Shown piece by piece: positions 3,755 to 56,583 of a stretch of DNA of 64,000 nucleotides. The notes under the pieces are model-generated. The model was not told the origin of the DNA, made no database searches, and saw only the letters and a list, made by a program, of their open reading frames with translations. The position numbers were made by a program, and so were the translations under genes. Location of the stretch: contig JAPLHB010000188.1 in NCBI GenBank assembly GCA_026389845.1, positions 51,026 through 115,025 of the forward strand. The letters run 5' to 3'. This stretch comes from Chloroflexota bacterium (lineage in GTDB: Bacteria > Chloroflexota > Anaerolineae > CG2-30-64-16). Positions within the stretch are counted from its first letter, which is position 1. The number at the start of each line of letters is the position of its first letter.

Positions 3755-4708
3755 ATGGATTGGATCGAGATCAGCATCCGCGCGGACGGCGAGGCGGCCG
3801 AGGCGGTGAGCGAGCTTTTCAACCGGCTGAACAGCCGGGGCGATGGCGAGGGCGGCGCGGTGGTCGAGGTGGGCGGCTTTGACCCCATCGGTGACGACCA
3901 CCACCCCTTCGTCACCGTGCGCACTTACCTGCCCGCCGATCTGTCCGACATAGCCGGCCGCCAGCAGCAGATCGAGGAAGGGCTGTGGTTCCTGGGCCGC
4001 ATCTATCCGCTCGGCGAGCCGCAAATCCGCCGCCTGGCCGAGGAGGATTGGGCCAACACCTGGAAGGCTAACTACAAGCCGCTGCACATCGGCCGGCGGT
4101 TCCTGGTGGTACCCGCGTGGTTGACCCCCTCTGCCATCCCCCCCGCCGCAGCGGGGGGGACCGAGGGGGGGTTGCTCCCCATCATCCTCGACCCCGGCAT
4201 GGCGTTCGGCACGGGTCTGCACCCCAGCACGCAGCTCGTTTTGCGTGCGATGGAGGACGTAGTGGGATCGGGCCAGCGCGCGCTCGACGCGGGGTGCGGC
4301 TCCGGCATCTTGAGCATCGCCGCGGTTCGACTGGGCGCCGCATCGGTGGACGCGTTCGACATTGACCCCATCGCGGTGCGCGCCACCGAAGAAAACGCGG
4401 CCTTGAACGATCTGCCGCTGCCGATCAACGTCAGCGCCGGCGCCGGGCCGGATGACGGCCCTTTCTGGCATCTGCCGGGCGGTGCGCGACGGACCTGGGA
4501 CGTGATCCTGGTCAACATCCTGCCGCACATCATCATCGGCCTGCTCCAAAGCGGTCTGCACACCTACCTGGCCCCCGGCGGATGCATGATCCTGGCCGGC
4601 ATCATCGAGGAGCGCGAGCCGGAGGTGGTCGCCGCGCTGGCCGAGCGGGGGTTAGCCGTCGCGAAGCGTCTCGTGGAAGGGGATTGGGTGGCTTTGGTCG
4701 CTGCCTGA
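3755..4708 (+). CDS. prmA: ribosomal protein L11 methyltransferase
   Basis: EEDWANTWK, DPGMAFGTGLHPST, DAGCGSGILSI; follows dnaJ. Confidence 0.95.
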   Translation: MDWIEISIRADGEAAEAVSELFNRLNSRGDGEGGAVVEVGGFDPIGDDHHPFVTVRTYLPADLSDIAGRQQQIEEGLWFLGRIYPLGEPQIRRLAEEDWANTWKANYKPLHIGRRFLVVPAWLTPSAIPPAAAGGTEGGLLPIILDPGMAFGTGLHPSTQLVLRAMEDVVGSGQRALDAGCGSGILSIAAVRLGAASVDAFDIDPIAVRATEENAALNDLPLPINVSAGAGPDDGPFWHLPGGARRTWDVILVNILPHIIIGLLQSGLHTYLAPGGCMILAGIIEEREPEVVAALAERGLAVAKRLVEGDWVALVAA

Positions 4709-5591: not shown

Positions 5592-6555
5592 ATGCCCGAA
5601 ACCGATTCCCCCTTGAAAGACTTGGTGCGCGATTTCGCGCCGGACTTCGCGGCCTGGTTGCTCGACGTGGATCCCGCGGACATTGTCGCGGTTCACGTCG
5701 AGAACATCGAGTTGCCGGCGGGCAAGGTGCAATCGGACACAGTGCTCCACGTGACCTTAACCAGCGGTCTGACGCCAGTGCTGCACATCGAGTTTCAGGG
5801 CATCCGCACCGAACGACCGATGCCCTGGCGGATGCTGGATTACATGAGCCGGCTCGTCCAGCAAGGTTGGAGTTCGCTGTGCAGCGCGGTGATCTACGTG
5901 GGCGACGGCGCGGGGGTTCGTGATACCGGTCAGCACCGGATTGGCTGTCCCGACGGCGGGGTGGCGTTGGCGTGGAATTACCGCGTCATCCGCCTGTGGC
6001 AGATGCGTGCCGAGGAGTTGCTGGCATTGAAGCGCCCGGCGTTGCTGGCGCTGATCGGGCAGACGCGGATTGAGAGGCCGGAACAGGTGGTGCCGGAGGC
6101 GGTGGCGACCATCGGACGAGTGGCGGATTACGGTCAGCGGGTGCGGCTGTTCGATGCGTTTGCCAGCTTGATGCGCGATGAGAGCCTGTCCTGAGCGCAG
6201 CCGAAGGAAGGTATTGATTATGGCTGAACGACTGATCGAAGCAATGGACGAAGGTTTGCTGATGGACACGCCCTTCTTGCGCCATGCCCGCGAGAAGGGT
6301 CGCGCCGAAGGTCGCACCGAGGGTCGCGCTGAAGGCCGCACCGAAGGTCGCACCGAGGGTCGCACCGAGGAGCTCCAGAAGATCATCCTGGACGTGCTAT
6401 CCACGCGCCTGAAGCTGACGGTCCCGCAATATCGCCGCATCGAGGGCCGCGTCGAGGCTCTGGGCGATGAAACTCGCCTGCGGGATCTGCTGCGCACCGT
6501 CATCCTGGCCGGCGATGTGGCCGAGTTCGAGGCCAGCCTGGCCGCAGGCGGTTGA
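5592..6555 (+). pseudogene. Rpn-family (recombination-promoting nuclease / PD-(D/E)XK) gene split by a 25-nt insertion; C-terminal part could be translated from ATG 6220
   Basis: D..LK.L, LHIEFQ, MPWRMLDY motifs; C-terminal EGR(T/A) repeats; removing 25 nt at about 6184-6208 rejoins ..MRDE-KVLIMAERL.. Confidence 0.75.
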
Positions 6556-6578
6556 CGCACCTGGTAACATGCGGCATG

Positions 6579-6611
6579 ACGTGCCAGGCACTTGCGAAGT
6601 GCCTGGCACGT
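6579..6611. repeat. REP-like palindrome family C (ACGTGCCAGGCACTT-GCG-AAGTGCCTGGCACGT)
   Basis: perfect hairpin; identical copy at 8925-8957 and tandem variant at 12795-12849. Confidence 0.85.
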
Positions 6612-6631
6612 GGCAAACACCGAGGTTCCCC

Positions 6632-9600
6632 ATGGCGCAACCCCAACCGGAGCCTACCCCCACCTACGACGTTTTCATCTCCTACAGCCACGCCGACCAG
6701 GTTTGGGTTGGGGAGTGGCTGGTTCCCCGCCTGAAGGCCGCCGGCCTGGCGGTCTGCACCGACCAGGAATCGTTCGACATCGGCGTGCCCAGCCTCGTCA
6801 ACATGGAAAATGCCGTGGCCGCCAGCCGTCACACGCTGCTGGTGCTGACCGAGGCGTGGGTGCGGAGCCAGTGGACGCAGTACGAGGCGCTGCTGGTGCA
6901 AACCGACGATCCGAGCGGCCTGTTCCAACGCACCCTGCCTGTGCTGCGCCGGCCCTGCGCGCCGCCGCGGCGCATCGGCATGTTGACCTACGCCGACCTC
7001 ACCGGCCAGGGGGACACGGAAGCCGAGTTTGCAAAGCTGCTGGACGCCATCCGCGGGGTGCGCCGGCTGCCGGACGCCGGCGCGACCGCGACCACCCTGG
7101 GGCTGAGCTACGACCTGCGCGGGGCAGCGCAGGCTGCGGAAGCCGCCGAGGTCGAGCGGGACTATCGCGATCAACTCGTCAGCGACCTGACGTGGCACGA
7201 TTTCCGCGGCATGTACCAGTTCGAGCAGCACATCCGCCTGCCGCTGGCCGAAATCTACCAGGAGTTGGGACTCCTGAAGATCGGCGGCGCGGAGGAGCAC
7301 CGGAAGACGCGCGAGCGGATGCTGGTGCTGGACGAAGCCGAGCGCATGGCCGAGGTCGAGCGCCGCGTGCAGGAGCGCGTGTCGGGCGCGCTGGCGCGCT
7401 CGCAACGCCTGGTGATCCTGGGCGATCCGGGCGCGGGCAAGACGATCTCGCTCAAGTTCATCGCCCTGATGCTGGCGAGTCGCCGCGGCGCGGAGCGTCT
7501 GGCGCTGGCTGCGCCCTACCTGCCGGTGATGGTACGGCTGGCGCACTTCGCCCAGGCGTTGGCGCAGGAACCCGCGCTGTCGCTGGATAACTACCTGCTC
7601 CAGGTGATCCCGAAGAGTTACACCACGGGGCTGGCCGACTTCGTGCGGCTGGCGCTGGGCCGCGGGGCCTGCATTCTGCTGTTGGACGGCCTTGACGAGG
7701 TGGGCGACAACCGGACGACCGGCCAGTCGTTGCGCAAGGCGGTCGTCAAGCGGGTGCAGCAGTTCGCCGATCGCTGGTGTACGGACGACCGCCCTAATCG
7801 CCTGGTCGTCACCAGCCGCATAGAGGGCTATTGGAGCGACGCGCTGGCGAACTGCGACCACGTCGAGATCAGCCCGCTCAGCCCGCCGGACGAGGTGGAA
7901 CAGTTCTTGCTGCGCTGGTACGACGCGCACGAGCGCCATCGCGTGCCCGCGCCGCTGCCCGAGGTCGCCCGGGCGCGAGCCGCGGCCCGCGTCGCCAACC
8001 TGCTGCCGCAACTGATGGACACGCCGAGCGTCAAACGGCTGGCGACCAACCCGCTGCTGCTGACCATCCTGGTCCTCATCTCCGACAAAGTGCCCAAGCT
8101 GCCCCAGAAACGGGCCAAGCTCTACGCGATTTGCACCAAGACCCTGATCGAGTCGTGGCGGCAGGAGCAGACCGAGCAGCAGAGCAAGCTGTTGAGCGAT
8201 CTGGGCGAAGGGGGCGAGGAGATCGTCACGCGCGTGATCGCGGATCTGGCCTTTTGGCTGCACGAGCATTACCCCGGCGGCGCGGCGTCGCTGGGGGAGT
8301 GCCGCGACCGGCTGTTGGCCTATCTGACCGACGATGAGGGCTATGAACGCCCGCGGGCGCAGGTCATCGCCGATGGGTTGCTCTCCTTTGCGAGCTGCGA
8401 GGCGGGGCTGCTGTGCGAGCGCGGGTTGGGGCAATACGGCTTTTTCCATCTGACCTTCGAGGAGTACCTGGCCGGTTATCACCTGACGCGCACCGAACCC
8501 GCGCAGCGCCACGACATCCTGACCGCACACTGGCGGGACGGTCGCTGGCGGGAGGTGATCCTGCTGGCGGCCGGGCAGTTGGGCGTGGTGGACAACCGGC
8601 AGTATGACGCCGGGGGCTTCCTGAACGACCTGCGCAGCATGGAGCCAACCGGCCCGGACGACGCGGGCCGGCCCGCGGTGCTGGCGGGTCGCGCCCTGGC
8701 CGACATTGGCGCCAGCGGCGTGAACCCCACCACTCGCCGCGACGTGCTGCGCGAACTGCGCCAGACGATGCAAGACCGCGATCTGGAGACCGACCGTCTG
8801 AACGAGCCGCCGCGCATCCCTGTGCTCACGCGCTACGCCGCCGGCGAAGCCTGGGACGAACTGGGCGGTCTGCCCGAAGATCTTGATGCCTGGGTTTATT
8901 GCGCGGCGGGTGGCGTGCGGGGTAACGTGCCAGGCACTTGCGAAGTGCCTGGCACGTGGCAAGCGCTTCTCGCCGCCAAATATCCAATCACCAACGCCCA
9001 GTTCGAGCGGTTCATCCAGGCCGATGGCTACGACAAACCGGGCTATTGGGGCGGCAAGGACAGCCCGGGCTGGCGTTGGCGGATGAAACCGCCCGATTAT
9101 CGCGGCGCAGGCCCGGTGACGCAGCCGGAATATTGGCAGCGTCCCCGTTTCGGCAAGGACCGCCGCGGCTACCCGGTCGTCGGCATCTCCTGGCACGAGG
9201 CCGCCGCGTATGCCGCATGGCTGACGGAGCGATTGCGGATTGGCGATTTCGGATTGCGGATTGTCTCTCCCAATGGCGTCAATCCGCAATCCGTAATCCG
9301 AAATCCGAAATGCGTCGTCCGTCTGCCCACCGATGCCGAATGGCTGTGGCTGGCCGGCGGCGAGAAGGAGGGCGAGCGAGAACGCTATCCCTGGGACGTG
9401 CCGGGCAGCGGCCGCGTTACCGATTTCGAGAGCGAGGAGGGCAAGAAAACGATCCTGGCGCGGGCTAACACGGCCGAATCCGGTATCGGCGGTACGTCGC
9501 CGGTGGCGATGTATCCCTTGGGGGAGAGCAAACCGTTCGGTCTGTGGGACGTGGCCGGCAATGTGTGGGAATGGAACGATTTATGGCATAATCAAGAGCA

Positions 9601-9742
9601 AAGTGACCGTGTGGTGCGGGGCGGGTCGTGGTACCACAGTCAGTGGCTCGCCCGCCCGTCTGTGCGCCTCTGGGACTCTCCCGACTATTCGCTCGGTTAT
9701 ATCGGGTTCCGCCTGGTCTCCCCCATTAGTTCTGGTTTCTGA
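6632..9742 (+). CDS. TIR - NACHT NTPase - FGE-sulfatase (CLec-fold) protein, NLR-like
   Basis: YDVFISYSHAD TIR; GDPGAGKT Walker A; LLLDGLDEV Walker B; LATNPLLL; FFHLTFEEY; PVVGISWHEA, RLPTDAEW, DVAGNVWEW, RGGSW..GFR. Confidence 0.9.
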   Translation: MAQPQPEPTPTYDVFISYSHADQVWVGEWLVPRLKAAGLAVCTDQESFDIGVPSLVNMENAVAASRHTLLVLTEAWVRSQWTQYEALLVQTDDPSGLFQRTLPVLRRPCAPPRRIGMLTYADLTGQGDTEAEFAKLLDAIRGVRRLPDAGATATTLGLSYDLRGAAQAAEAAEVERDYRDQLVSDLTWHDFRGMYQFEQHIRLPLAEIYQELGLLKIGGAEEHRKTRERMLVLDEAERMAEVERRVQERVSGALARSQRLVILGDPGAGKTISLKFIALMLASRRGAERLALAAPYLPVMVRLAHFAQALAQEPALSLDNYLLQVIPKSYTTGLADFVRLALGRGACILLLDGLDEVGDNRTTGQSLRKAVVKRVQQFADRWCTDDRPNRLVVTSRIEGYWSDALANCDHVEISPLSPPDEVEQFLLRWYDAHERHRVPAPLPEVARARAAARVANLLPQLMDTPSVKRLATNPLLLTILVLISDKVPKLPQKRAKLYAICTKTLIESWRQEQTEQQSKLLSDLGEGGEEIVTRVIADLAFWLHEHYPGGAASLGECRDRLLAYLTDDEGYERPRAQVIADGLLSFASCEAGLLCERGLGQYGFFHLTFEEYLAGYHLTRTEPAQRHDILTAHWRDGRWREVILLAAGQLGVVDNRQYDAGGFLNDLRSMEPTGPDDAGRPAVLAGRALADIGASGVNPTTRRDVLRELRQTMQDRDLETDRLNEPPRIPVLTRYAAGEAWDELGGLPEDLDAWVYCAAGGVRGNVPGTCEVPGTWQALLAAKYPITNAQFERFIQADGYDKPGYWGGKDSPGWRWRMKPPDYRGAGPVTQPEYWQRPRFGKDRRGYPVVGISWHEAAAYAAWLTERLRIGDFGLRIVSPNGVNPQSVIRNPKCVVRLPTDAEWLWLAGGEKEGERERYPWDVPGSGRVTDFESEEGKKTILARANTAESGIGGTSPVAMYPLGESKPFGLWDVAGNVWEWNDLWHNQEQSDRVVRGGSWYHSQWLARPSVRLWDSPDYSLGYIGFRLVSPISSGF

Positions 9743-9783
9743 TTTCTGAATTGCTGGATTCTGTCGCTCAGATATGAGGCGCG

Positions 9784-10722
9784 ATGCATCGCTTTTTCGT
9801 TTCCCCCCCATCCCTCGACCACCAGCCTGTCACCCTCACCGGCGACCAGGCACACCAGGTGCGTCGCGTGCTCCGCATGCGGCTGGGCGACCGCGCGACC
9901 CTGCTCGACGGCCGTGGCGGGGCCTACGAGGGCATCTTGATCGCGGTGGGCGACGCGGACGTCAAGTTCCAGGTCGTGCGCCGGTGGGAGGCCGAGCGCG
10001 AGCCGCGGACGCACGTCACCCTCTACCAGGCCGTGCTCAAGGGCGAGCGGTTCGGCTGGGCGCTGCAAAAGGGCACCGAGGTCGGCGTCAGCGCGTTCGT
10101 GCCGATGATCTGCGAGCGCAACGTGGTGGATGACCTGGACGCAGTCGAGAGCAAGCGCGAGTGGTGGGAGCGTATCATCCAGGAAGCGGCCGAGCAGTGC
10201 GGACGCGGCCGGCTGCCGGAGCTGGGGGCTGCGCAGTTGTTTGGGCAGGCGGTGGCAAGCGCCCCCCCGGCCCCCCGAAATCGGGGGGAGACGGGTACCA
10301 CCCCAGATTGGGGGGCTGGGGGGGAGACGGGTACCCCCCCAGATTGGGGGGCTGGGGGGGAGTCGGATTCCCCCCCAGATTGGGGGGCTGGGGGGGAGAC
10401 GGGTACCCCCCCAGATTGGGGGGCTGGGGGGAAGTCGGATTCCCCCCAGGATTGGGGGGGCAGGGGGGCCGTTCGTCTCATCCCCTGGGAAGGTGAGCAC
10501 GTGACCACCCTGCGCGACGCGCTGGTGGGGTGTAACTTCGCCGCGGGCGCGCGCATCCAAGTGTATGTCGGGCCGGAGGGGGGCTTCACCGAGGCCGAGA
10601 TAGCCCAGGCCCGGCGCTACGGCGTGCAATCCGTCACCCTCGGCCCGCGCATCCTGCGGGCGGAGACCGCGGGGGTCATCGCTGCGGCGCTGATCTTGTA
10701 CGAAGCGGGGGAGATGAACTAG
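9784..10722 (+). CDS. rsmE: 16S rRNA m3U1498 methyltransferase with in-frame repeat insertion
   Basis: HQVRRVLRM, QKGTEVGV, EAAEQCGR, VGPEGGF, LGPRILRAETA. Confidence 0.93.
   Translation: MHRFFVSPPSLDHQPVTLTGDQAHQVRRVLRMRLGDRATLLDGRGGAYEGILIAVGDADVKFQVVRRWEAEREPRTHVTLYQAVLKGERFGWALQKGTEVGVSAFVPMICERNVVDDLDAVESKREWWERIIQEAAEQCGRGRLPELGAAQLFGQAVASAPPAPRNRGETGTTPDWGAGGETGTPPDWGAGGESDSPPDWGAGGETGTPPDWGAGGKSDSPQDWGGRGAVRLIPWEGEHVTTLRDALVGCNFAAGARIQVYVGPEGGFTEAEIAQARRYGVQSVTLGPRILRAETAGVIAAALILYEAGEMN
10261..10470. repeat. 36-bp tandem C/G-tract palindromic repeat inside rsmE (encodes ETGTPPDWGAGG-like units, about 5)
   Basis: repeated cccagattggggggctgggggggag. Confidence 0.9.
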
Positions 10723-14045: not shown

Positions 14046-15797
14046 ATGAACCCAATCCGCCAAATCGCCAGATTCCTCCGACCCTATCGCAGGGAAGCGA
14101 TCATCGCCCCGCTGTTGATGGTCGTGGAAGTTGCCATAGACCTGATCTTGCCGTCCCTCATGGAGCGCATTATTGACGTGGGGATCGGCACGCGCAACCT
14201 GCCGGTGGTGCTGAACACCGGTTTGTTGATGCTCGGGCTGACCTTCGTCGGCGCGTTTGGGGGCATCGGCTGCACCGTTTTCGCGGTGCGCGCGGCCATG
14301 AACTACGGCGCCGACCTGCGCAGCGCGGTCTACCGCAAGATTCAGACGCTCTCCTTCGGCAACCTCGACCGGCTCGGCACCGGTCAACTGGTCACGCGGC
14401 TCACCAACGACGTCAACCAGGCGCAGGAGGTTGTCCTGATCGCGTTGCGCATCCTCGTGCGTGCGCCACTGCTCGTCGTGGGGAGCCTCATCATGGCGAT
14501 CCTCACCAGCCTCCGCCTGGCGCCCACCCTGGTGATCCTGGTTCCGTTCCTGACGGTCGTGCTGGTCGTTGTGATCCGGCGCTCCACGCCGCTCTTTCTT
14601 CGTGTCCAGGAGAGCCTCGACCGGCTGAACACCACGCTCCAGGAAAACCTGGCCGGGGTGCGGGTGGTCAAGGCGTTTGTGCGCGGCCAGCACGAGGAGG
14701 CACGTTTCGGCGCTGCCAACGATGCGCTGATGGCAAACTCGATCCGGGCCATGCAGTTCAGCGCGATCGTCGGCCCCTTTATGATGCTGGCGCTGAATTT
14801 CGGCGTCGCTGGCGCGCTCTGGTTCGGTGGCGTTCAGGTGACGCAGGGGACGATGACCGTCGGCGAGATCGTCGCGTTCACCAACTACCTCCGCCAGACG
14901 CTCTTCTCCCTGCAGATGGTCAGCATGTTGCTCATCCAGGTCTCTCGCGCGGGCGCTTCGGCCACGCGCCTGGCCGAGGTGTTGAACGCCGCGCCAGACG
15001 TCCAGGATCGGCCCGGCGCCCAGGCGGCGTTTCCGGCGGGTGGCCGTGTCGCCTTCGAGCACGTGACCTTCGCGTATGACGGCGGCGATCCTGTGCTGCA
15101 GGACATCAGCTTCGTGGCCGAGCCGGGGCAGACGGTCGCCATCCTGGGCGCGACGGGGTCGGGCAAGTCCTCCCTGGTCAGCCTGATTCCGCGCTTCTAC
15201 GACGTGAAAGCCGGCCGAGTGACCATCGGCGGCGTGGACGTGCGCGACATCCCCCAGGCCGAGCTGCGCAGCCACATCGGCGTGGCCTTGCAAGACACCA
15301 TCCTCTTCTCCGGCAGTATCGCCGAAAACATCCGCCAGGGCCGCCCTGCGGCCGATGATGTCGCCCTGGCCGCGGCCGCGCAGGCCGCGCAGGCCGACGA
15401 TTTTATCACGGCGTTGCCCGAAGGCTACGGCGGCGAGTTGGGGCAGCGGGGGGTCAATCTCTCCGGCGGTCAAAAGCAGCGGATTGCCATCGCCCGTGCC
15501 CTGATCCGGCAGCCCGACATCCTGATCCTGGATGACAGCACGAGTGCAGTGGATGTCCAAACAGAGGCCAGGCTCCAGGCCGCGCTGGACCGGTTGATGG
15601 CCGGGCGGACCAGCTTTGTGGTGGCCCAACGCATCAGCACCGTGCTCCAGGCCGATAAGATTCTGGTCCTCGACGAGGGCCGGATCGCCGCGGAGGGCAC
15701 GCACCAGGAGTTGATCGTTACCAGTCCGATCTACCGCGAGATTTTTGAGTCGCAATTGGGCAACGGGGCGCTGGCAGCCGCGGGAGGTGTCTCATGA
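14046..15797 (+). CDS. ABC exporter ATP-binding/permease subunit (heterodimer A)
   Basis: TM domain plus GATGSGKS, LSGGQKQR, ILDDSTSAVD (degenerate site). Confidence 0.93.
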   Translation: MNPIRQIARFLRPYRREAIIAPLLMVVEVAIDLILPSLMERIIDVGIGTRNLPVVLNTGLLMLGLTFVGAFGGIGCTVFAVRAAMNYGADLRSAVYRKIQTLSFGNLDRLGTGQLVTRLTNDVNQAQEVVLIALRILVRAPLLVVGSLIMAILTSLRLAPTLVILVPFLTVVLVVVIRRSTPLFLRVQESLDRLNTTLQENLAGVRVVKAFVRGQHEEARFGAANDALMANSIRAMQFSAIVGPFMMLALNFGVAGALWFGGVQVTQGTMTVGEIVAFTNYLRQTLFSLQMVSMLLIQVSRAGASATRLAEVLNAAPDVQDRPGAQAAFPAGGRVAFEHVTFAYDGGDPVLQDISFVAEPGQTVAILGATGSGKSSLVSLIPRFYDVKAGRVTIGGVDVRDIPQAELRSHIGVALQDTILFSGSIAENIRQGRPAADDVALAAAAQAAQADDFITALPEGYGGELGQRGVNLSGGQKQRIAIARALIRQPDILILDDSTSAVDVQTEARLQAALDRLMAGRTSFVVAQRISTVLQADKILVLDEGRIAAEGTHQELIVTSPIYREIFESQLGNGALAAAGGVS

Positions 15798-17650
15798 CGC
15801 CGAATAACGCGCCCCGGCCGCAGGTGCAACCTATCTTCGGCATCGGCCCGCGCGGGCCGATGGGGCCGGGCGGCGGGTTCGGCCAGACGGCGCGCGCCAA
15901 AGACGCGCAGGGCACGCTCCACCGGCTGTGGGGCTATCTGCGACGCCAGCGGTGGCTGTTGGTGGCCGTCGTCATCCTGGTTCTGCTCACGACCGGCCTG
16001 AGCTTGCTCGGCCCCTACCTGATGGGGCTTGCCATTGACCGCTTCATCCTGGCCCATGATCTGCCCGGGCTGGCGCGGCTGATCGTGTTGATGCTCGTTT
16101 CCTACGCTGCGTTGTCGCTCACCTCGTGGCTCCAGACGATCCTGATGATTCGCGCAGCGCAGGGCACGGTGCGCGATCTGCGCCGCGATCTCTTCGCCAA
16201 GCTGCAAACGTTATCACTGCGTTTCTTCGACGGGCATACGCACGGTGAGCTGATGAGCCGGCTGACCAACGATGTCGAGAACGTCAATACGGTGCTGACC
16301 AACAGCGTGACGAGCTTCATCTCCTCCATCTTCACGCTGGTGGGCGTCATCATCGTGATGTTGGCCGTCAACGTCCCGCTGGCGCTGGTCAGCCTCATCG
16401 TCGTGCCGCTGATGGCATATCTGACGCGCTATATCGCCCGTAACAGCCGGCAGGGCTTCCGCGATCAACAGGCGGCCTTGGGCGTGCTGAACGGACTGGT
16501 CGAGGAGAGCATCACCGGTGGCAAGGCCGTTCACGCCTACGGCCGCGAGGAGGCGGTGATCGAGGAGTTCGATCAGGCAAACCGCCGGTTGCGGGCGGCT
16601 GCGATCCGTGCGCAGACCTATTCCGGTCTGATGGGCCCGGGCGGCAACATGGTCAACAACATCGGCTTCGCTGCCATGGCGACCGCGGGGGCCTGGATGG
16701 CCGTGCGGGGACTGGCGACCATCGGCACCGTTGCCAGCTTCCTGAACTACGCCCAGCAGCTCCGCCGGCCCATCAGCGACCTTGCCAGCCTCTTCAACAC
16801 CATCCAGGCGGCGTTGGCCGGCGCCGAGCGGGTCTTCGACATTCTTGACGAACACCCGGAGATCGAAGATGCGCCGGAAGCCCTGCCGCTGACGGCCATC
16901 GCCGGCAAGGTGGTCTTCGACGCGGTGGACTTCGGCTACAAGTCAGGCGTGCCCGTGCTCCGTCACGTCAGCTTGACCGCCGAGCCTGGGCAGACCATCG
17001 CGCTGGTGGGGCCGACCGGCGCGGGCAAGACGACCATCATTAACCTGCTGTCGCGCTTCTACGACGTGGATGCCGGCGCCATTCGGATTGACGACCAGGA
17101 CATCCGCGGCGTTCGCAAGGCCGATCTGCGCCGGCAGTTGGGCGTGGTGCTGCAAGACACCTTCCTCTTCTCAGAAAGCGTCAAGGAAAACATCCGTTAC
17201 GGCCGGCTGGACGCGACCGACGACGAGGTGATCGCTGCCGCACGCCTGGCGAACGCCGACCACTTCATCCACCGGCTGCCCCACAGCTACGATACGCTCC
17301 TATCGGAGCGCGCCGGCAACCTGAGCCAGGGCCAGCGGCAGTTGTTGGCGATCGCGTGCGCCATCCTGGCCGATCCCCGCATCCTCGTCCTGGACGAAGC
17401 AACCAGCAGCGTTGACACCCGCACCGAGGCACAGATCCAGGAAGCGCTGCTGCGTCTGATGGAGGGGCGGACGAGCTTCGTGGTGGCCCACCGCCTGAGC
17501 ACGATCCGCGAGGCCGACAAGATCCTCGTCATCCGCAATGGTGAGATCGTGGAGCAAGGCAGCCACAAGGCCCTGCTGGCGCAGGAGGGATTCTACTACG
17601 AGTTGTACATGAGCCAATTCAAAGGCGTGATGATCCCTGGATCGAGGTGA
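15794..17650 (+). CDS. ABC exporter ATP-binding/permease subunit (heterodimer B)
   Basis: GPTGAGKT, LSQGQRQ, LDEATSSVD, AHRLST; 4-nt overlap with partner. Confidence 0.93.
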   Translation: MTPNNAPRPQVQPIFGIGPRGPMGPGGGFGQTARAKDAQGTLHRLWGYLRRQRWLLVAVVILVLLTTGLSLLGPYLMGLAIDRFILAHDLPGLARLIVLMLVSYAALSLTSWLQTILMIRAAQGTVRDLRRDLFAKLQTLSLRFFDGHTHGELMSRLTNDVENVNTVLTNSVTSFISSIFTLVGVIIVMLAVNVPLALVSLIVVPLMAYLTRYIARNSRQGFRDQQAALGVLNGLVEESITGGKAVHAYGREEAVIEEFDQANRRLRAAAIRAQTYSGLMGPGGNMVNNIGFAAMATAGAWMAVRGLATIGTVASFLNYAQQLRRPISDLASLFNTIQAALAGAERVFDILDEHPEIEDAPEALPLTAIAGKVVFDAVDFGYKSGVPVLRHVSLTAEPGQTIALVGPTGAGKTTIINLLSRFYDVDAGAIRIDDQDIRGVRKADLRRQLGVVLQDTFLFSESVKENIRYGRLDATDDEVIAAARLANADHFIHRLPHSYDTLLSERAGNLSQGQRQLLAIACAILADPRILVLDEATSSVDTRTEAQIQEALLRLMEGRTSFVVAHRLSTIREADKILVIRNGEIVEQGSHKALLAQEGFYYELYMSQFKGVMIPGSR

Positions 17651-36022: not shown

Positions 36023-39000
36023 TTATGGCGTCACGATCACCGGCAGCCAAAGGCTCAGGTAGGTCGCCGTGGTCTCGGCTGCCAGGCTGGGCGTCCCGCT
36101 CAGATTCATCACTTCCAAGCGGTAGGTGTAGACCACGCCGCGGTGGGCGCTTTGGTCGAGCCAGGTGTAGCGATGGCCATCCGATGAGCCAGGCGAGACG
36201 CTGGGGATCACCCGAGGGTTCAGCCGCACCCAGGGGCCGTCGGGGGGGGCGCAGCGATAGAGATTGAAGCCAAGCACGCCCAATTCGCTGATGGTCTCCC
36301 ATGCCAGGGTCACACCGGCGGCCGTCGCGTCCGCGGTGAAGGACTCCAGTTCCCCCGCCGTCGGCGAGAACTTGAACTCGTAGTCCTCCACCTCGCCGCC
36401 GAAGACCACGCCGTAAGGCACAAACTCCTGGGCATATCCCTCCGGGTAGAGCCGGAACCGAGAATACAGTTGTCTGTCCGCCACATAGTTGGATGGGATG
36501 CTGAGCGTCACAGTCTGGGCTGCGCTGATCACCGTGCCCAGGTCAACCGCCTCGCCCGCATCGGAGAAGTCCCCATCATCATTCCAGTCAAACCAGGCCC
36601 ACAAATAGCCGCTGCCGCTGGCTGTCACGGTGAGGGTTCTGCTTGCGCCTGCGGTCCAGGCCCCCTGGCTCGGCGGCACGATGCCATCGTTATCGGCCGG
36701 CGTGCCCACCGCGCCATCGTTTTCGATCAGGATCGTCGGCCCCAGGTGCAGTGTGCCCGTGATCACGTGGCGTGCGCCGTCTTGCGCCAACGTGGTGTCG
36801 GCGTAAACGGTCGGCAGGTTGCCGAAGTCCAACTGCGAGACCTCGCCGGCGCTGACGCCCGTCATCTGTTGATTCGTCGCCAGGGTAAGCTCGGCGGTCA
36901 GGCCGGTCGAATCGGCTTTGTTGTCAGCGATAACCGAGCTGAACGTAAAGCCCAGCCGCTGGTAGAAGCCCACCTGGTACTTTCCTGCCGCCAGGTTCCC
37001 GAAGCTGTAGGCGCCGTTCGCATCCGAGATGCTGTACGCGGTCTGGTCATCGCCGTCTCCCCACACGCCGTTAGCACCCGCATAGTAGAGCGTGACCGGG
37101 GTATTCGCCAGCACAGGTTCGCCCGTTTCCTTGACGCCATCGTTGTCATCCTCCCAGGTGACGCCGCTGATCGAGCCCATCGTCAACGTCATGACAGTGG
37201 GGTCGCCGGTCTCCCCTGTGGCCGGATCATCGGTGGCGAGGGAGTATGCGTTGGCGCTCGCCGCGTGGCCCTGGTTGGCGAGCGTGGCAAGCTGGAACGG
37301 CAGCGGATTGTTGACCGTCACGCGGTAGGTGATCGTGGCCGAGCCGCTGCCGGCCATGCTGGCAAAGGTCACGCTGACCGCTGTGCTGCTGCTCGTGTTG
37401 CTGCACGCCGGGGCACACGTTACGCTGCCCGCAACCAGCGTGGTGTTGGGATCCGGGGTGTCGTTGTACAAGACATTGTAGGCCGTGTTCGCGCCGTTGG
37501 TGATCACCACCTGGTATTTGAGCGTGTCCCCCGGCGAGACGCCGCCGCTGCTGTCCGCATCAATGAACGGCACAATGCGCGATGAGACGTCTGAGCTGCT
37601 CAGCGCGTCCTTGGTCGCGGTCAGGCTGGTCATGGCGACCAGGGTGTTGTTGTCTGTCGCCGAAGAAGCGGGGGTGGTCTCATAGGTGGCCGTGGCTGTG
37701 TTCGCGATCACGGTCCCGACAATAGCCCCGGAGTCAACCGTTCCCCTGACCGTATAGGTGACGCTGCCGCCGGCCAGGATGGTCGCCGTATTGGCGATGT
37801 TCCCGCTGCCGTCCGCCGTGCACGTGGAGCCGCTGCTGGCGGCGCACGTCCACGTCACATCCGTGATGGCGGCCGGGAACGTGTCCTGCACGCTGACGCT
37901 GGCGGCGTCGCTTTTCCCGGTGTTGCTCACGACGATGGTGTAGATATCCCCGCGCCCCGGCGCCAGGCCCGGATTCGGGCTGCTGGTCTTGTTGACCCCT
38001 AAAGTGACCTGTGGGGTCAGGCTGCGACTCACCGAACTGCTGTTGTTGGCCTGCGCCAGGTCGGTGATGCCGGCCGGCGGGGCGACCGTGGCCGTATTGG
38101 TCAGTGTGCCCGTGGCCGCCGGAGCGATCGTGCCCTGGATGGTGTAGGTGGCCGTAGCGCCCGAGGGCAAGCTGACGGTCTCATACAGCGGATTGCTACT
38201 CCCGCTGGTGTTCGTACATGTTCCGCCCGAAGAGACACAGGTCCAGGTCACACCGGTTACGGCTGCGGGGACCGTGTCCGAAACCACCGCCCCGGTGACG
38301 GCGTTCGGGCCGTTGTTGGTCACCAGGAGCTGGTACGTCACACCATCTCCGGGTGTGGTGCCGCCCGACACAACGCTCTTGACGATGGACAGATCAGCAG
38401 CCGGGAGCAGCTCCAGGCCGGCGCCGCTCTGTCCGCTGAGGGTCTTGCCATTGGCGTCCGCATAGGTCACAGCCGCCGAGTTCGCCAGCAGGGTACTGCC
38501 GGATGGCAGCACTGTCACCACGATCTGGTCGCTGCCCGTGCAGCCGTACTGGGCGCGGGCGGTCAGCGTGGCCGTGTAGACGCCAGGCGTGGTGTATTGA
38601 TGGGTAAAGGTATTGCTCAACTGATAATCCGCCGCCGGGCTGCCATCGCCGTAGGTGATCGTGTACGAATACGGTGTGCGCCCACCGATTGCCAGCTCGT
38701 TGGCTGAGAAGACCACATCCGTATCCTCCCGGACGGTGTTGGGGGCCGAGGCAAAGGGCCGCAAGCTGGTATATGCGGCGCCCAGGTTGAACAGCAGGCC
38801 GATGTGATCTTGTCCGCCCAGGGCGGCATGGCCGCCGTGGCGATTGTTGAGCAGTTGCACGGCCAGGATGTTGATGCCCGACTGGATGCCGGGTGTGGCA
38901 GTGAAGGAATCCGCGCCGCCTGCGCCGACCTCCTGGCCCAGATAGACGCCGTTCAAGTAGATGTCGGAGACGTCATCGCCAGCCAGCTCCAGGTTGGCGC

Positions 39001-55416: not shown

Positions 55417-56583
55417 TTAATCTGCGTGGCTTTCTGTATCACGTGCCCTCAATATCCATGCCTGCACCGGCGTCTCCGGCACGGACATCCCTAAATGCTG
55501 TTCGGCATACCGCGCCTGCGCGTGACGGCAGGCCAACGAGTGGCCGGCATAGGGATCGCCGCGCTCCTTCCACGCCAGCCCCGCACACCGTCCCTCGCAA
55601 TATGCGGCGAGCGGGCAGCCGCGGCAATCGGGCAGGTTGGCAAAGGTGTGCTGGCTGCGCAACTGGCGCAGGATGGGCGCATCGGCCCAGATGTCGGCAA
55701 ATCGCTGGCGGCGCTCACCGACCAGGCGACCGGCCGGAATCCGCAGCTCGTTGCAGGGATACACCACCCCGTAGGGACTGACAAGGCAGGATGCAAGCCC
55801 GACCTGGCACGTGCGCCGGCTGGCAGCGGGCGGCTTGGGGAGAAACGGCGTTCGGTCGGCAAGGAGGACGCCGGTCATCTGGCTGGTCGAGAGCTGGTAG
55901 CGTGCGGCTTTCAGCCTGCCGTCGTCGTTGGGTGAAATCTTGAACGTTTGCTCGTAGTATACACCGAATTCTTGTGCTATGTCAAGCATGGCCTGGCACT
56001 CGGCGAGGTTCAAATCCAATAACAACGTGTTCAGCTTGACCCGTACCCCGCGCTCCTGCAGCAGCCGGACGCCCCGCAGGATGCGGCGCAGCGTATCGCG
56101 GCCGCCCATCACCGCGTCGCTCGTCTCAACCGTCGCGCCCAGCAGGCTGATGTCCACCTGTACGGGGTCGAGATCGGCCACCCGCTCCGCCGCGTCCGGC
56201 GTCAGCAGCGTGCCATTGGTCTTCAGGTCGAGCGCAAAGCCCAGCGCGCGCGCCCGCCCGGCAATCGTGAAGAAATCGCGGCGGGTCAGGATCTCCCCGC
56301 CGGTCAGGGTCAGCCGCAGCGCGCCGGCCGCGGCCAACTGCGCCAGCACGTCCAGGCACTCGGCCGTGGTCAGCTCTGGCTCGGCCCGCGACACGTTGTA
56401 GCACATTACACAGGCCAGGTTGCACCGGTGCGTCAGCTCCCAGAGGATCGTGTAGGGCACGTGCTCGGCTCGGAGGCGACCCAGGAGCGCGTCGTAGGCG
56501 TCCGCAGGGGTGGCACGCTCGCCACACGCGTCGAACTGGGGGGTGGGAGGCTGGAAGCTGGAAGCTGGAAGCTGGTCGGTCAC
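55417..56583 (-). CDS. radical SAM/SPASM domain protein (PqqE/MftC-like)
   Basis: WELTHRCNLACVMC, TGGE, TNG; SPASM C..G...CLVSP.G.VYPC ... C..C.....C.G.C. Confidence 0.93.
   Translation of the reverse strand: MTDQLPASSFQPPTPQFDACGERATPADAYDALLGRLRAEHVPYTILWELTHRCNLACVMCYNVSRAEPELTTAECLDVLAQLAAAGALRLTLTGGEILTRRDFFTIAGRARALGFALDLKTNGTLLTPDAAERVADLDPVQVDISLLGATVETSDAVMGGRDTLRRILRGVRLLQERGVRVKLNTLLLDLNLAECQAMLDIAQEFGVYYEQTFKISPNDDGRLKAARYQLSTSQMTGVLLADRTPFLPKPPAASRRTCQVGLASCLVSPYGVVYPCNELRIPAGRLVGERRQRFADIWADAPILRQLRSQHTFANLPDCRGCPLAAYCEGRCAGLAWKERGDPYAGHSLACRHAQARYAEQHLGMSVPETPVQAWILRARDTESHAD

What the first reader, a model, noticed from the sequence alone, without database searches (positions are those of the whole stretch)
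9600..9765. TIR-NACHT-CLec protein ends in a DGR-type variable region (orphan/remote target)
Seen: GGSW-YHSQWLARPSVRLWDSPDYSLGY-IGFR. The codons at candidate variable positions are tac cac agt, tgg ctc, ctc tgg gac tct, tat, ctc ggt tat. All are NNY or NGG and map onto a template reading NNNQRNAR.S.RNRNNPDNSNNNIGFR (AAY/AGG codons changed only at A). T-ending codons are frequent here, unlike the rest of this GC-rich gene. A ttctg-repeat tract spans the stop. Established: DGRs mutate adenines, and FGE-type CLec domains, including those on NACHT proteins of multicellular bacteria, are known targets. No RT, Avd or TR was found in the window.
Basis: partly seen in the sequence, partly recalled or inferred. 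Interest (0 to 1): 0.75.

Follow-up and report, generated by a model that had tools for sequence, protein, structure and literature searches.

The report
Orphaned retroelement-diversified tip of immune sensor
The last 40 codons of a TIR-NACHT-lectin "immune sensor" gene carry the unmistakable scar of a diversity-generating retroelement, but the matching template and reverse transcriptase are missing from this genome and survive only in related bacteria, so the sensor tip now looks frozen.

Summary
Window 6632-9742 (+) encodes a TIR + NACHT + FGE-sulfatase/C-type-lectin protein.

The reading as a DGR variable region (VR) is supported.
- A template repeat (TR) in a related genome (L023, identical to G036:C20) matches window 9605-9722. 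17 of 27 TR adenines are mismatched, against 4 of 91 other bases (p=2e-10).
- Another relative (G007) has RT-Avd-TR for its ortholog.
- 25 orthologs vary at exactly the A-bearing codons.

The VR is an orphan in this assembly.
- The genome has three other DGRs, none cognate.
- rsmE starts 42 nt after the stop.
- The GC hairpin found behind real VRs is absent.
- Contigs from three runs in two studies cross the VR unchanged.

The best reading is a frozen relic of past diversification (about 0.6). An unassembled cassette acting in trans is not excluded (about 0.3).

This is a new member of a known kind (Doré 2024). The TTCTG tract belongs to a 3' module conserved behind VRs in Anaerolineae.

The parts
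6632..9742 (+). TIR-NACHT-FGE/CLec gene. It is 1036 aa from the ATG at 6632; the longest ORF starts at 6467 and gives 1091 aa.
   Evidence: ORF list and translation. The database copy of the window protein is 1036 aa. The start position was computed.
6671..7042 (+). TIR_2 domain, the putative effector
   Evidence: Pfam PF13676, E 6.2e-22, residues 69-192 of the 1091-aa ORF. PADLOC gives TIR-type hits only.
7406..7921 (+). NACHT NTPase domain
   Evidence: Pfam PF05729, E 4.4e-7, residues 314-485. GDPGAGKT and LLLDGLDE are visible in the translation; naming them Walker A and Walker B is from recall.
8957..9718 (+). FGE-sulfatase / C-type-lectin-fold domain, the sensor
   Evidence: Pfam PF03781, E 4e-35, residues 831-1084.
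9605..9725 (+). DGR variable region, the stretch homologous to a TR
   Evidence: Ungapped alignment to the TR of L023/G036 over 9605-9722. 17 of 27 TR adenines are mismatched, against 4 of 91 other bases. The first 27 nt are identical to that TR; 25 of them (from 9607) are also identical to the genome's own TR1.
9632..9700 (+). The variable codons themselves (YHSQWL..LWDS.DY.LGY)
   Evidence: Entropy across 25 orthologs is 2.63 bits at the 16 codons with A at position 1 or 2 of the TR, and 0.25 bits at the other 8. A joint at 9631->9702 in run X3 brackets exactly this stretch.
9701..9722 (+). Invariant 3' end of the VR, IMH-like
   Evidence: These 22 nt are identical between the window VR and the L023 TR. 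Homology ends about 3 nt further on.
9728..9763 (+). TTCTG-period tract across the stop codon, part of a conserved 3' module of VR-bearing genes
   Evidence: It aligns with the tracts behind the orthologs in G007 and G029, behind L028-L031, L037, L038 and L073, and behind the genome's own VRs. Homology stops after GATTCTG, where the others continue into a G-run hairpin.
9764..9822 (+). Place where a GC-rich hairpin is expected but absent; the junction to rsmE
   Evidence: DNA fold of 9723-9822: -6.3 kcal/mol, z +0.37. The control behind VR1a gives -31.9 kcal/mol, z -6.1.
9784..10722 (+). rsmE-like RNA methyltransferase gene. It is not part of the element but marks where a cassette would have been.
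   Evidence: Pfam Methyltrans_RNA, E 3e-41, plus PUA_4.

Best explanation
Window 9605-9725 is a genuine DGR variable region. It lies at the C-terminal ligand-binding face of a C-type-lectin (FGE-sulfatase) domain, which serves as the sensor of a TIR-NACHT (STAND/NLR-like) conflict protein. In an ancestor, a cassette of RT, bAvd and a TR stood directly behind the gene. The TR read NNNQRNARPSVRNRNNPDNSNRNIGFR. The cassette copied the TR into error-prone cDNA, with adenines randomised, and wrote the cDNA over the VR. In this genome the cognate cassette is gone and the VR is frozen in one specificity (YHSQWL..LWDS.DY.LGY). Shown: the A-specific VR/TR relation, the ortholog cassettes, the absence of a cognate TR in the assembly, the missing hairpin, and the identical contigs. 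Inferred: that loss rather than non-assembly explains the absence, that the protein is a defence sensor, and that TIR is its effector.
For: (1) Domains: TIR_2, NACHT and FGE-sulfatase.
(2) A cognate TR exists in L023, which is 100% identical to G036:C20 over 2709 nt. Over 118 nt, 17 of 27 TR adenines are mismatched against 4 of 91 other bases, Fisher p=2.4e-10. The 4 lie at codon position 3.
(3) In L023 the ortholog (81% aa identity) is followed directly by RT, Avd and TR. In G007 the ortholog's contig ends 51 nt after its stop. A second contig starts with RT (RVT_1), then bAvd, then a TR that matches that ortholog's VR, with 18 of 29 adenines and 6 of 91 other bases mismatched.
(4) In 25 orthologs, entropy is 2.63 bits at A-bearing codons and 0.25 bits elsewhere. 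CAG shows Q/L/R. The first AGG codon shows mainly R/W/G (19 of 25), the second R/G/W/E.
(5) No cognate TR lies in the 6.84-Mb assembly. The best non-self scaffold match is 65 of 90, and the assembly's own TR1 scores 63 of 90. Only three DGR RTs are present, each with its own TR and VRs.
(6) rsmE begins 42 nt after the stop. There is no hairpin (z +0.37) where VR1a, VR2a and the G029 ortholog have one. Homology to the conserved 3' module stops at 9763.
(7) Contigs of X1 (study P1), X2 and X5 (study P2) cross 9605-9763 with 0 differences.
(8) The same DGR lineage is decaying in G036: the VR end of the target is deleted, RT residues 134-281 are missing, and the TR has no VR in its genome.
Against: The assembly is a 228-contig bin, 93.9% complete with 8% contamination. 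A 2-3-kb cassette could be unassembled or unbinned; G007's cassette sits on a 7.4-kb contig. All four runs laid were assembled contigs, which hide rare variants. One of them may be the sample the window came from. In the same runs, other contigs fit the flanks but not the VR: joints at 9631->9702 and 9575->9700. These could be VR variants rather than relatives. I could not run the positive control, which is to look at the genome's bona fide VRs in the same runs. Remote targets served in trans are documented (PMC10907252, section 8 read; PMC5758913, passages read). The G029 ortholog also lacks a TR yet keeps its hairpin, so the hairpin does not track TR presence.
Confidence: 0.6

Rival explanations
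1. The VR is an active remote target. A fourth RT-Avd-TR cassette with the cognate TR exists in this organism but was not assembled or binned, and it still rewrites the VR in trans.
For: The bin is 93.9% complete in 228 contigs. This genome's TR2 already serves VRs on two other contigs, with 8 of 9 and 11 of 12 mismatches at adenines. No RT, Avd or TR was found in the sequence held beside 4 related Anaerolineae targets, L028-L031 (about 1.8 to 5 kb downstream). The VR keeps an intact 22-nt IMH-like end and the TTCTG tract. Some contigs in X2, X3 and X5 fit the flanks but not the VR. Trans activity is documented in PMC10907252 (section 8 read).
Against: There is no cognate TR in 6.84 Mb. The VR is identical in contigs of three runs from two studies. 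The GC hairpin is absent, and in the BPP-1 prototype that hairpin is needed for efficient homing (PMC3240598, abstract read). In the two relatives where the cognate TR is known, it lies next to or probably next to the target.
Confidence: 0.3
2. One of the three resident DGRs (TR1 on C208 is the nearest) cross-targets this VR.
For: 25 nt at the 5' end of the VR (from 9607) are identical to TR1. The two align codon for codon, and 21 of 32 TR1 adenines are mismatched.
Against: 32 of 103 non-A positions also differ from TR1, including the scaffold codons (CAY against PSV, VSD against SPD) and the 3' IMH-like end. Homing from TR1 would have overwritten these. The same 25 nt are also shared with the L023 TR, so they are a conserved boundary and not evidence of TR1 use.
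Confidence: 0.04
3. There is no retroelement history. The pattern is ordinary positive selection on lectin-fold loop residues in a paralogous family.
For: Binding-site residues of lectin-fold sensors can be hypervariable for selective reasons alone.
Against: Selection does not explain three things: differences from a non-coding, A-rich repeat in a relative fall on adenines 17 to 4; Q/L/R and R/W/G are the spectra seen at the CAG and AGG codons; and that repeat sits behind an RT and a bAvd.
Confidence: 0.02

Closest known systems
DGR-diversified STAND NTPase (NACHT/nSTAND)-CLec putative antigen sensors of multicellular bacteria (Doré et al. 2024, PMC10907252; passages and section 8 read)
   Same: The architecture is the same: N-terminal effector (TIR among those listed), NACHT NTPase, and C-terminal CLec with a VR. 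There are several related DGRs per genome, targets away from the cassette, and filamentous Chloroflexi are among the hosts.
   Different: Here the cognate TR and RT are not in the assembly at all. They were identified only in related genomes. Read-level diversification was not shown.
The Thiohalocapsa PB-PSB1 'DGR 1' target (same paper, section 8 read)
   Same: It is a remote VR that shows no variation in natural populations.
   Different: The DGR 1 VR still matches a TR in its own genome at all non-A sites. The window VR has no such TR.
Bordetella phage BPP-1 Mtd DGR target site: IMH plus hairpin/cruciform (Guo et al. 2011, PMC3240598; abstract read)
   Same: The VR lies at the C-terminus of a lectin-fold domain, it has an invariant GC-rich 3' segment shared with the TR, and real VRs in this genome are followed by a GC hairpin.
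   Different: The window copy lacks the hairpin. In this lineage a TTCTG-period tract of about 35-50 nt lies between the VR and the hairpin. I did not find this in the passages of the three DGR papers I read, and I ran no search of the paper library for it.
Remote or non-adjacent DGR targets, e.g. Treponema (Wu et al. 2018, PMC5758913; passages read)
   Same: The target gene is far from any RT, and the host is not phage-associated.
   Different: That survey's criterion of only A-to-N differences from a TR in the same genome is not met here.
Bacterial NACHT / Avs-type antiviral STAND proteins (recalled, not tested)
   Same: TIR effector plus NACHT NTPase plus a C-terminal sensor.
   Different: No PADLOC model matched beyond the TIR part and one weak hit in the NTPase region (PDC-M54A, E 1.7e-4, residues 292-362). 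The sensor is a DGR-type lectin fold, not TPR or other repeats.

Membership tests
DGR target gene / variable region | VR at the C-terminal end of a C-type-lectin (FGE-sulfatase) fold domain | tested here: met
   PF03781, E 4e-35, residues 831-1084. The VR covers residues 1047-1087 of the 1091-aa ORF.
DGR target gene / variable region | A TR in the same genome that differs from the VR only at TR adenines | tested here: not met
   A whole-assembly scan of scaffold positions gave a best non-self score of 65 of 90. blastn with word size 7 found nothing better. The assembly is 93.9% complete.
DGR target gene / variable region | A-specific mismatch pattern against a cognate TR, wherever that TR is | tested here: met
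   Against the TR of L023/G036, 17 of 27 adenines are mismatched and 4 of 91 other bases, p=2.4e-10.
DGR target gene / variable region | DGR-type RT and accessory Avd beside the cognate TR | tested here: met
   G007:C126 carries RVT_1 (E 2e-14), then bAvd (E 3e-20), then the TR. In L023/G036 the order is the same but the RT lacks residues 134-281. None of this is in the window's own genome.
DGR target gene / variable region | Invariant 3' segment (IMH-like) shared by VR and TR | tested here: met
   Window 9701-9722 is identical to the L023 TR, and divergence follows within about 4 nt.
DGR target gene / variable region | GC-rich inverted repeat (hairpin/cruciform) just downstream of the VR | tested here: not met
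   Window 9723-9822 folds at -6.3 kcal/mol, z +0.37. Controls: VR1a -31.9 kcal/mol (z -6.1), VR2a -21.3 (z -2.3), G029 ortholog -18.9 (z -1.75).
DGR target gene / variable region | Hypervariability at template-A positions within a population | tested here: inconclusive
   Only assembled contigs were available. Contigs from three runs cross the VR with 0 differences, while other contigs fit the flanks only. No raw reads were used.
DGR target gene / variable region | Orthologs vary at A-bearing codons and keep the scaffold | tested here: met
   25 orthologs give 2.63 bits against 0.25 bits, Mann-Whitney p=9e-5. Positions 7-10 (ARPS) were fixed by the regular expression that selected the rows.
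STAND / NLR-like NACHT NTPase with TIR effector | TIR domain, NACHT P-loop NTPase and C-terminal sensor in one chain | tested here: met
   Pfam hits. P-loop-like GDPGAGKT and DGLDE motifs are seen; the motif names are recalled. NTPase, NADase and defence activity are not testable here.

The most novel reading that the evidence does not exclude
The TTCTG-period tract that follows the stop codon is not just another of this genome's heptamer arrays. It is a lineage-specific DGR target-site element of Anaerolineae, a conserved 3' module of the form ...GFRLVSP-xx-TCTGG-TTCTGATTTCTG-GATTTCTGAAG-G-run hairpin. It marks lectin-fold ends for retrohoming, so that any gene carrying it can be served in trans. 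On this reading the window VR, which keeps the IMH-like end and the tract, is still a live remote target of a cassette that assemblies miss.
Probability: 0.12. Interest if true: 0.7.

Novelty: new member of a known kind. Interest (0 to 1): 0.45.

Why it matters
The finding shows that a DGR scar can be recognised from codon shape alone and then confirmed with a template from another genus. It also gives a natural pair of half-decayed systems. This genome keeps the VR without the cassette. G036 keeps the TR and Avd, with a broken RT and no VR. G007 appears to keep everything. That pair documents how hypermutated immune-sensor tips become fixed alleles once the retroelement is lost. It also warns that tools requiring a TR/VR pair in one genome miss such targets: VR-type ends with no TR found in their own genome were seen in four genomes here (G000, G029, G037, G038). 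The conserved tract-plus-hairpin module gives a testable candidate for target recognition in non-phage DGRs.

Tried and rejected
1. TR1 on C208 as the cognate template. Rejected: 32 of 103 non-A positions differ.

2. Near-identical VR variants among short database proteins. There were 94 hits, the best at 83% identity, and none from the same strain. This gives no information on within-population variation. 6 of the 35 tails printed were frameshifted inside the VR (ending ..GLPH). That could be assembly collapse of a variable region or real decay; I did not resolve it.

3. The contig layout as a test for a hidden TR. In X1, depth over 9652-9698 is 9.0 against 8.4 in the flanks, and only 4 T>A changes were listed over the whole stretch. 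So no TR-like contig of comparable depth was laid. A TR is only about 82% like the VR, contigs drop things, and the tool warns that missing cover proves nothing, so this was not used as evidence.

4. Synteny downstream of the cassette. G007's downstream genes match G000 contig C58, L023's match C33, and the window has rsmE. There is no shared right flank, so a simple deletion could not be demonstrated.

5. The search for related loci in genome contigs returned only more distant relatives, at most 51% identity. It was useful for the 3' module but not for the cognate TR.

6. PADLOC gave no family beyond the TIR part.

7. The supplements of the DGR papers were not consulted. They may list Chloroflexi loci, or 3' motifs, that bear on the novelty of the tract.
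Full report
WHAT IS THERE

The ORF 6467-9742 (+) probably starts at the ATG at 6632, because the database copy is 1036 aa. It encodes TIR_2 (E 6e-22), NACHT (E 4e-7) and FGE-sulfatase (E 4e-35) domains. The last 45 residues read DRVVRGGSW YHSQWL ARPSVR LWDS P DY S LGY IGFRLVSPISSGF*.

All 13 codons are NNY or NGG, against 58.4% of the other 996 codons (about 9e-4 by chance). 5 of the 13 end in T, against 97 of 996 elsewhere (p=0.006). A TTCTG-period tract (9728-9763) spans the stop at 9740-9742.

THE GENOME'S OWN DGRS

A search of the whole assembly (6.84 Mb, 228 contigs, 93.9% complete, 8.1% contamination) found three DGRs.
- C208: target, RT (RVT_1), bAvd, TR1, then a second target. 21 of 23 and 19 of 19 TR/VR mismatches fall on TR adenines.
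- C108: TR2 serves a local VR (9 of 10 mismatches at A). It also serves VRs on contigs C104 (8 of 9) and C72 (11 of 12).
- C191: TR3 serves two VRs (20 of 21 and 19 of 20).

All the targets checked with Pfam were NACHT + FGE-sulfatase proteins.

None of these TRs is cognate to the window VR. Against TR1, the nearest, the window VR aligns codon for codon and its first 25 nt (from 9607) are identical. But 32 of 103 non-A positions differ, scaffold codons included. A scan of both strands of every contig scored only the 90 scaffold positions. The best non-self match was 65 of 90. tblastn with RT and Avd proteins found only those three cassettes, and none on the window's contig.

THE COGNATE TEMPLATE EXISTS ELSEWHERE

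I selected 25 distinct orthologs with a regular expression that fixes ARPS. In these, entropy averages 2.63 bits at the 16 codons with A at position 1 or 2 of the TR, and 0.25 bits at the other 8 (Mann-Whitney p=9e-5). The CAG codon shows Q/L/R. The first AGG codon shows mainly R/W/G (19 of 25), the second R/G/W/E, and the third is more mixed.

In the same taxonomic family, 4 of 37 genomes (G000 included) have an ortholog at E<=1e-40. 13 of 37 have a DGR-type RT.

G007, in another genus, has the ortholog on a contig that ends 51 nt after the stop. On a second contig it has RT, then bAvd, then a TR reading NNNQRNARPSALNRNNPDNSNRNIGFR. Against its own VR, that TR is mismatched at 18 of 29 adenines and 6 of 91 other bases.

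I then scanned the metagenome collection with an 18-nt scaffold stretch of the window plus NNCNGG. It returned two loci. L023 carries a TR whose scaffold is identical to the window VR. Over 9605-9722, 17 of 27 TR adenines are mismatched, against 4 of 91 other bases. All four lie at third codon positions (AAC/AGT, GAT/GAC, AGG/GGT, AAC/TAT). Fisher p=2.4e-10.

L023 is 100% identical over 2709 nt to G036:C20, a genome of the same family and another genus. Its layout is ortholog of the window gene, RT, Avd, TR. The system is decayed:
- The ortholog (81% aa identity) is frameshifted and stops at about residue 1002, so it has no VR.
- The RT keeps only residues 1-133 and 282-351.

The TR has no VR anywhere in G036. 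G036 therefore holds an orphan TR, and the window holds the matching orphan VR.

IS THE WINDOW VR STILL WRITTEN?

Evidence against:
- No cognate TR is in the assembly.
- rsmE begins 42 nt after the stop, and prmA lies upstream, so the gene sits between two housekeeping genes.
- The conserved 3' module of VR-bearing genes in this lineage consists of the tract, then GAAG, then a G-run hairpin. In the window it breaks off after GATTCTG at 9763.
- The following 100 nt fold no better than shuffles (-6.3 kcal/mol, z +0.37). VR1a gives -31.9 (z -6.1), VR2a -21.3 (z -2.3) and the G029 ortholog -18.9 (z -1.75).
- In the BPP-1 prototype such a hairpin is needed for efficient homing (PMC3240598, abstract read).
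- Contigs of X1 (study P1; 910 nt, 9233-10142), X2 (study P2; 865 nt, 8938-9802) and X5 (study P2; 575 nt, 9233-9807) cross the VR with zero differences.

Evidence for continued activity, or leaving it open:
- These are assembled contigs, not reads, and one run may be the source of the window.
- In X3 no listed contig spans the VR unchanged.
- Joints at 9631->9702 (X3), 9575->9700 (X2, X3, X5) and 9574->9607/9611 show contigs that fit the flanks but not the VR. They may come from relatives, from paralogs, or from VR variants.
- The bin is incomplete.
- VR-type ends without a TR in their own genome also appear in G029 (99% complete), G038 and G037 (three such ends). Either orphaning is common, or cassettes are systematically missed.

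MECHANISM

Established DGR biology says that the RT, with Avd, copies the TR RNA with adenine-specific infidelity, and the cDNA replaces the VR from the IMH end (PMC3240598 abstract; PMC5758913 passages). Applied here, the ancestor of this gene had its lectin-fold binding face randomised at about 16 codons. The present allele is one outcome.

By analogy with the STAND-CLec sensors described by Doré et al. (PMC10907252, passages and section 8 read), ligand binding at the lectin face would trigger NACHT oligomerisation and TIR effector activity. This step is inference and nothing here tests it.

VERDICT

The feature is a new member of a known kind. My best reading is a frozen, orphaned VR (0.6). 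The main rival is a live remote target of an unassembled cassette (0.3).

I saw the conserved tract-plus-hairpin module behind the VR-type ends of 7 loci from five other genomes: L010 (G007), L011 (G029), L029, L031, L037, L038 and L073. L028 and L030 keep only a short remnant of the tract. The module also follows this genome's VRs. It is the most novel loose end.

The tract may therefore be a domesticated or merely tolerated member of that class.

Noticed in passing
window 9728-9763; also G000 C208:~17217-17260, C191:50649-50723 and 55954-56003, C108:~7590-7650; L010, L011, L028-L031, L037, L038, L073: A TTCTG/YCTG tract of 7-8-nt period starts in the last codons (it encodes ..SSGF*) and runs 30-50 nt past the stop. 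It usually ends in GATTTCTGAAG followed by a G-run hairpin. It lies behind all 7 TR-matched VRs of this genome, behind C203, behind the window VR, and behind orthologs in other genera, including complete target-RT-Avd-TR loci (L037, L038). The TRs lack it. YCTG counts are 3-8 per 87 nt, against a genome mean of 0.9. 8 of the 13 FGE paralogs that have no TR match and are not C203 have 0-1.
   Followed up: partly
G000 C208:11900-20000, C108:6800-9400 with C104:~16050-16140 and C72:~15280-15370, C191:49900-56100: Three separate RT-bAvd-TR cassettes diversify at least seven NACHT-FGE targets. TR2 serves VRs on two other contigs. C203:6783-7007 looks like a third TR1 target, but it has a 2-nt insertion that shifts the frame inside the VR.
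   Followed up: partly
L023 (identical to G036:C20, about 36250-38050): This is a decayed DGR of the same lineage. The target is frameshifted and cut before its VR, the RT lacks its catalytic core (residues 134-281), and Avd and the TR are intact. No VR for this TR exists in a 98%-complete genome. It is the reciprocal half of the window's orphan VR.
   Followed up: yes
window 8925-8958 and 6582-6612: A palindromic element of about 31-34 nt (GTGCCAGGCAC..GTGCCTGGCAC, read in frame as VPGTCEVPGTW) occurs twice. One copy lies inside the coding linker before the FGE domain and one just upstream of the probable start. Copies lie on many other contigs. Contig depth spikes about 100-fold there in all four runs. 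It is a dispersed hairpin repeat tolerated in frame.
   Followed up: partly
window 9229-9315: Two inverted heptamer arrays, (GGATTGC)n ... (GCAATCC)n, sit in frame inside the FGE-sulfatase domain and encode RLRIGDFGLRIVSPNGVNPQSVIRNPK. The G-rich arm comes first. Contig depth spikes there too. The frameshift in the G036 ortholog falls in the same region.
   Followed up: no
whole genome G000 (e.g. C191:57092-57214, C18:14265-14366, C23:10892-10986): 41 arrays meet a strict criterion of at least 5 TCTG in 60 nt. Almost all are perfect heptamer tandem repeats (CAATCTG, CCATCTG and others) at gene junctions, often next to a second array of a different unit.
   Followed up: no
window 3755-4708 and 9784-10722: The sensor gene, together with a PNP_UDP_1 gene and an unannotated ORF, lies between prmA and an rsmE-like gene. 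From recall, these two are neighbours in many bacteria, which suggests the sensor arrived by insertion.
   Followed up: no
database orthologs P0131, P0141, P0144, P0146, P0147, P0151: 6 of the 35 short orthologs printed are frameshifted within the VR and end in ..PPGLPH, the +1 reading of GFRLVSP. This may be assembly collapse of hypervariable populations or real decay.
   Followed up: no
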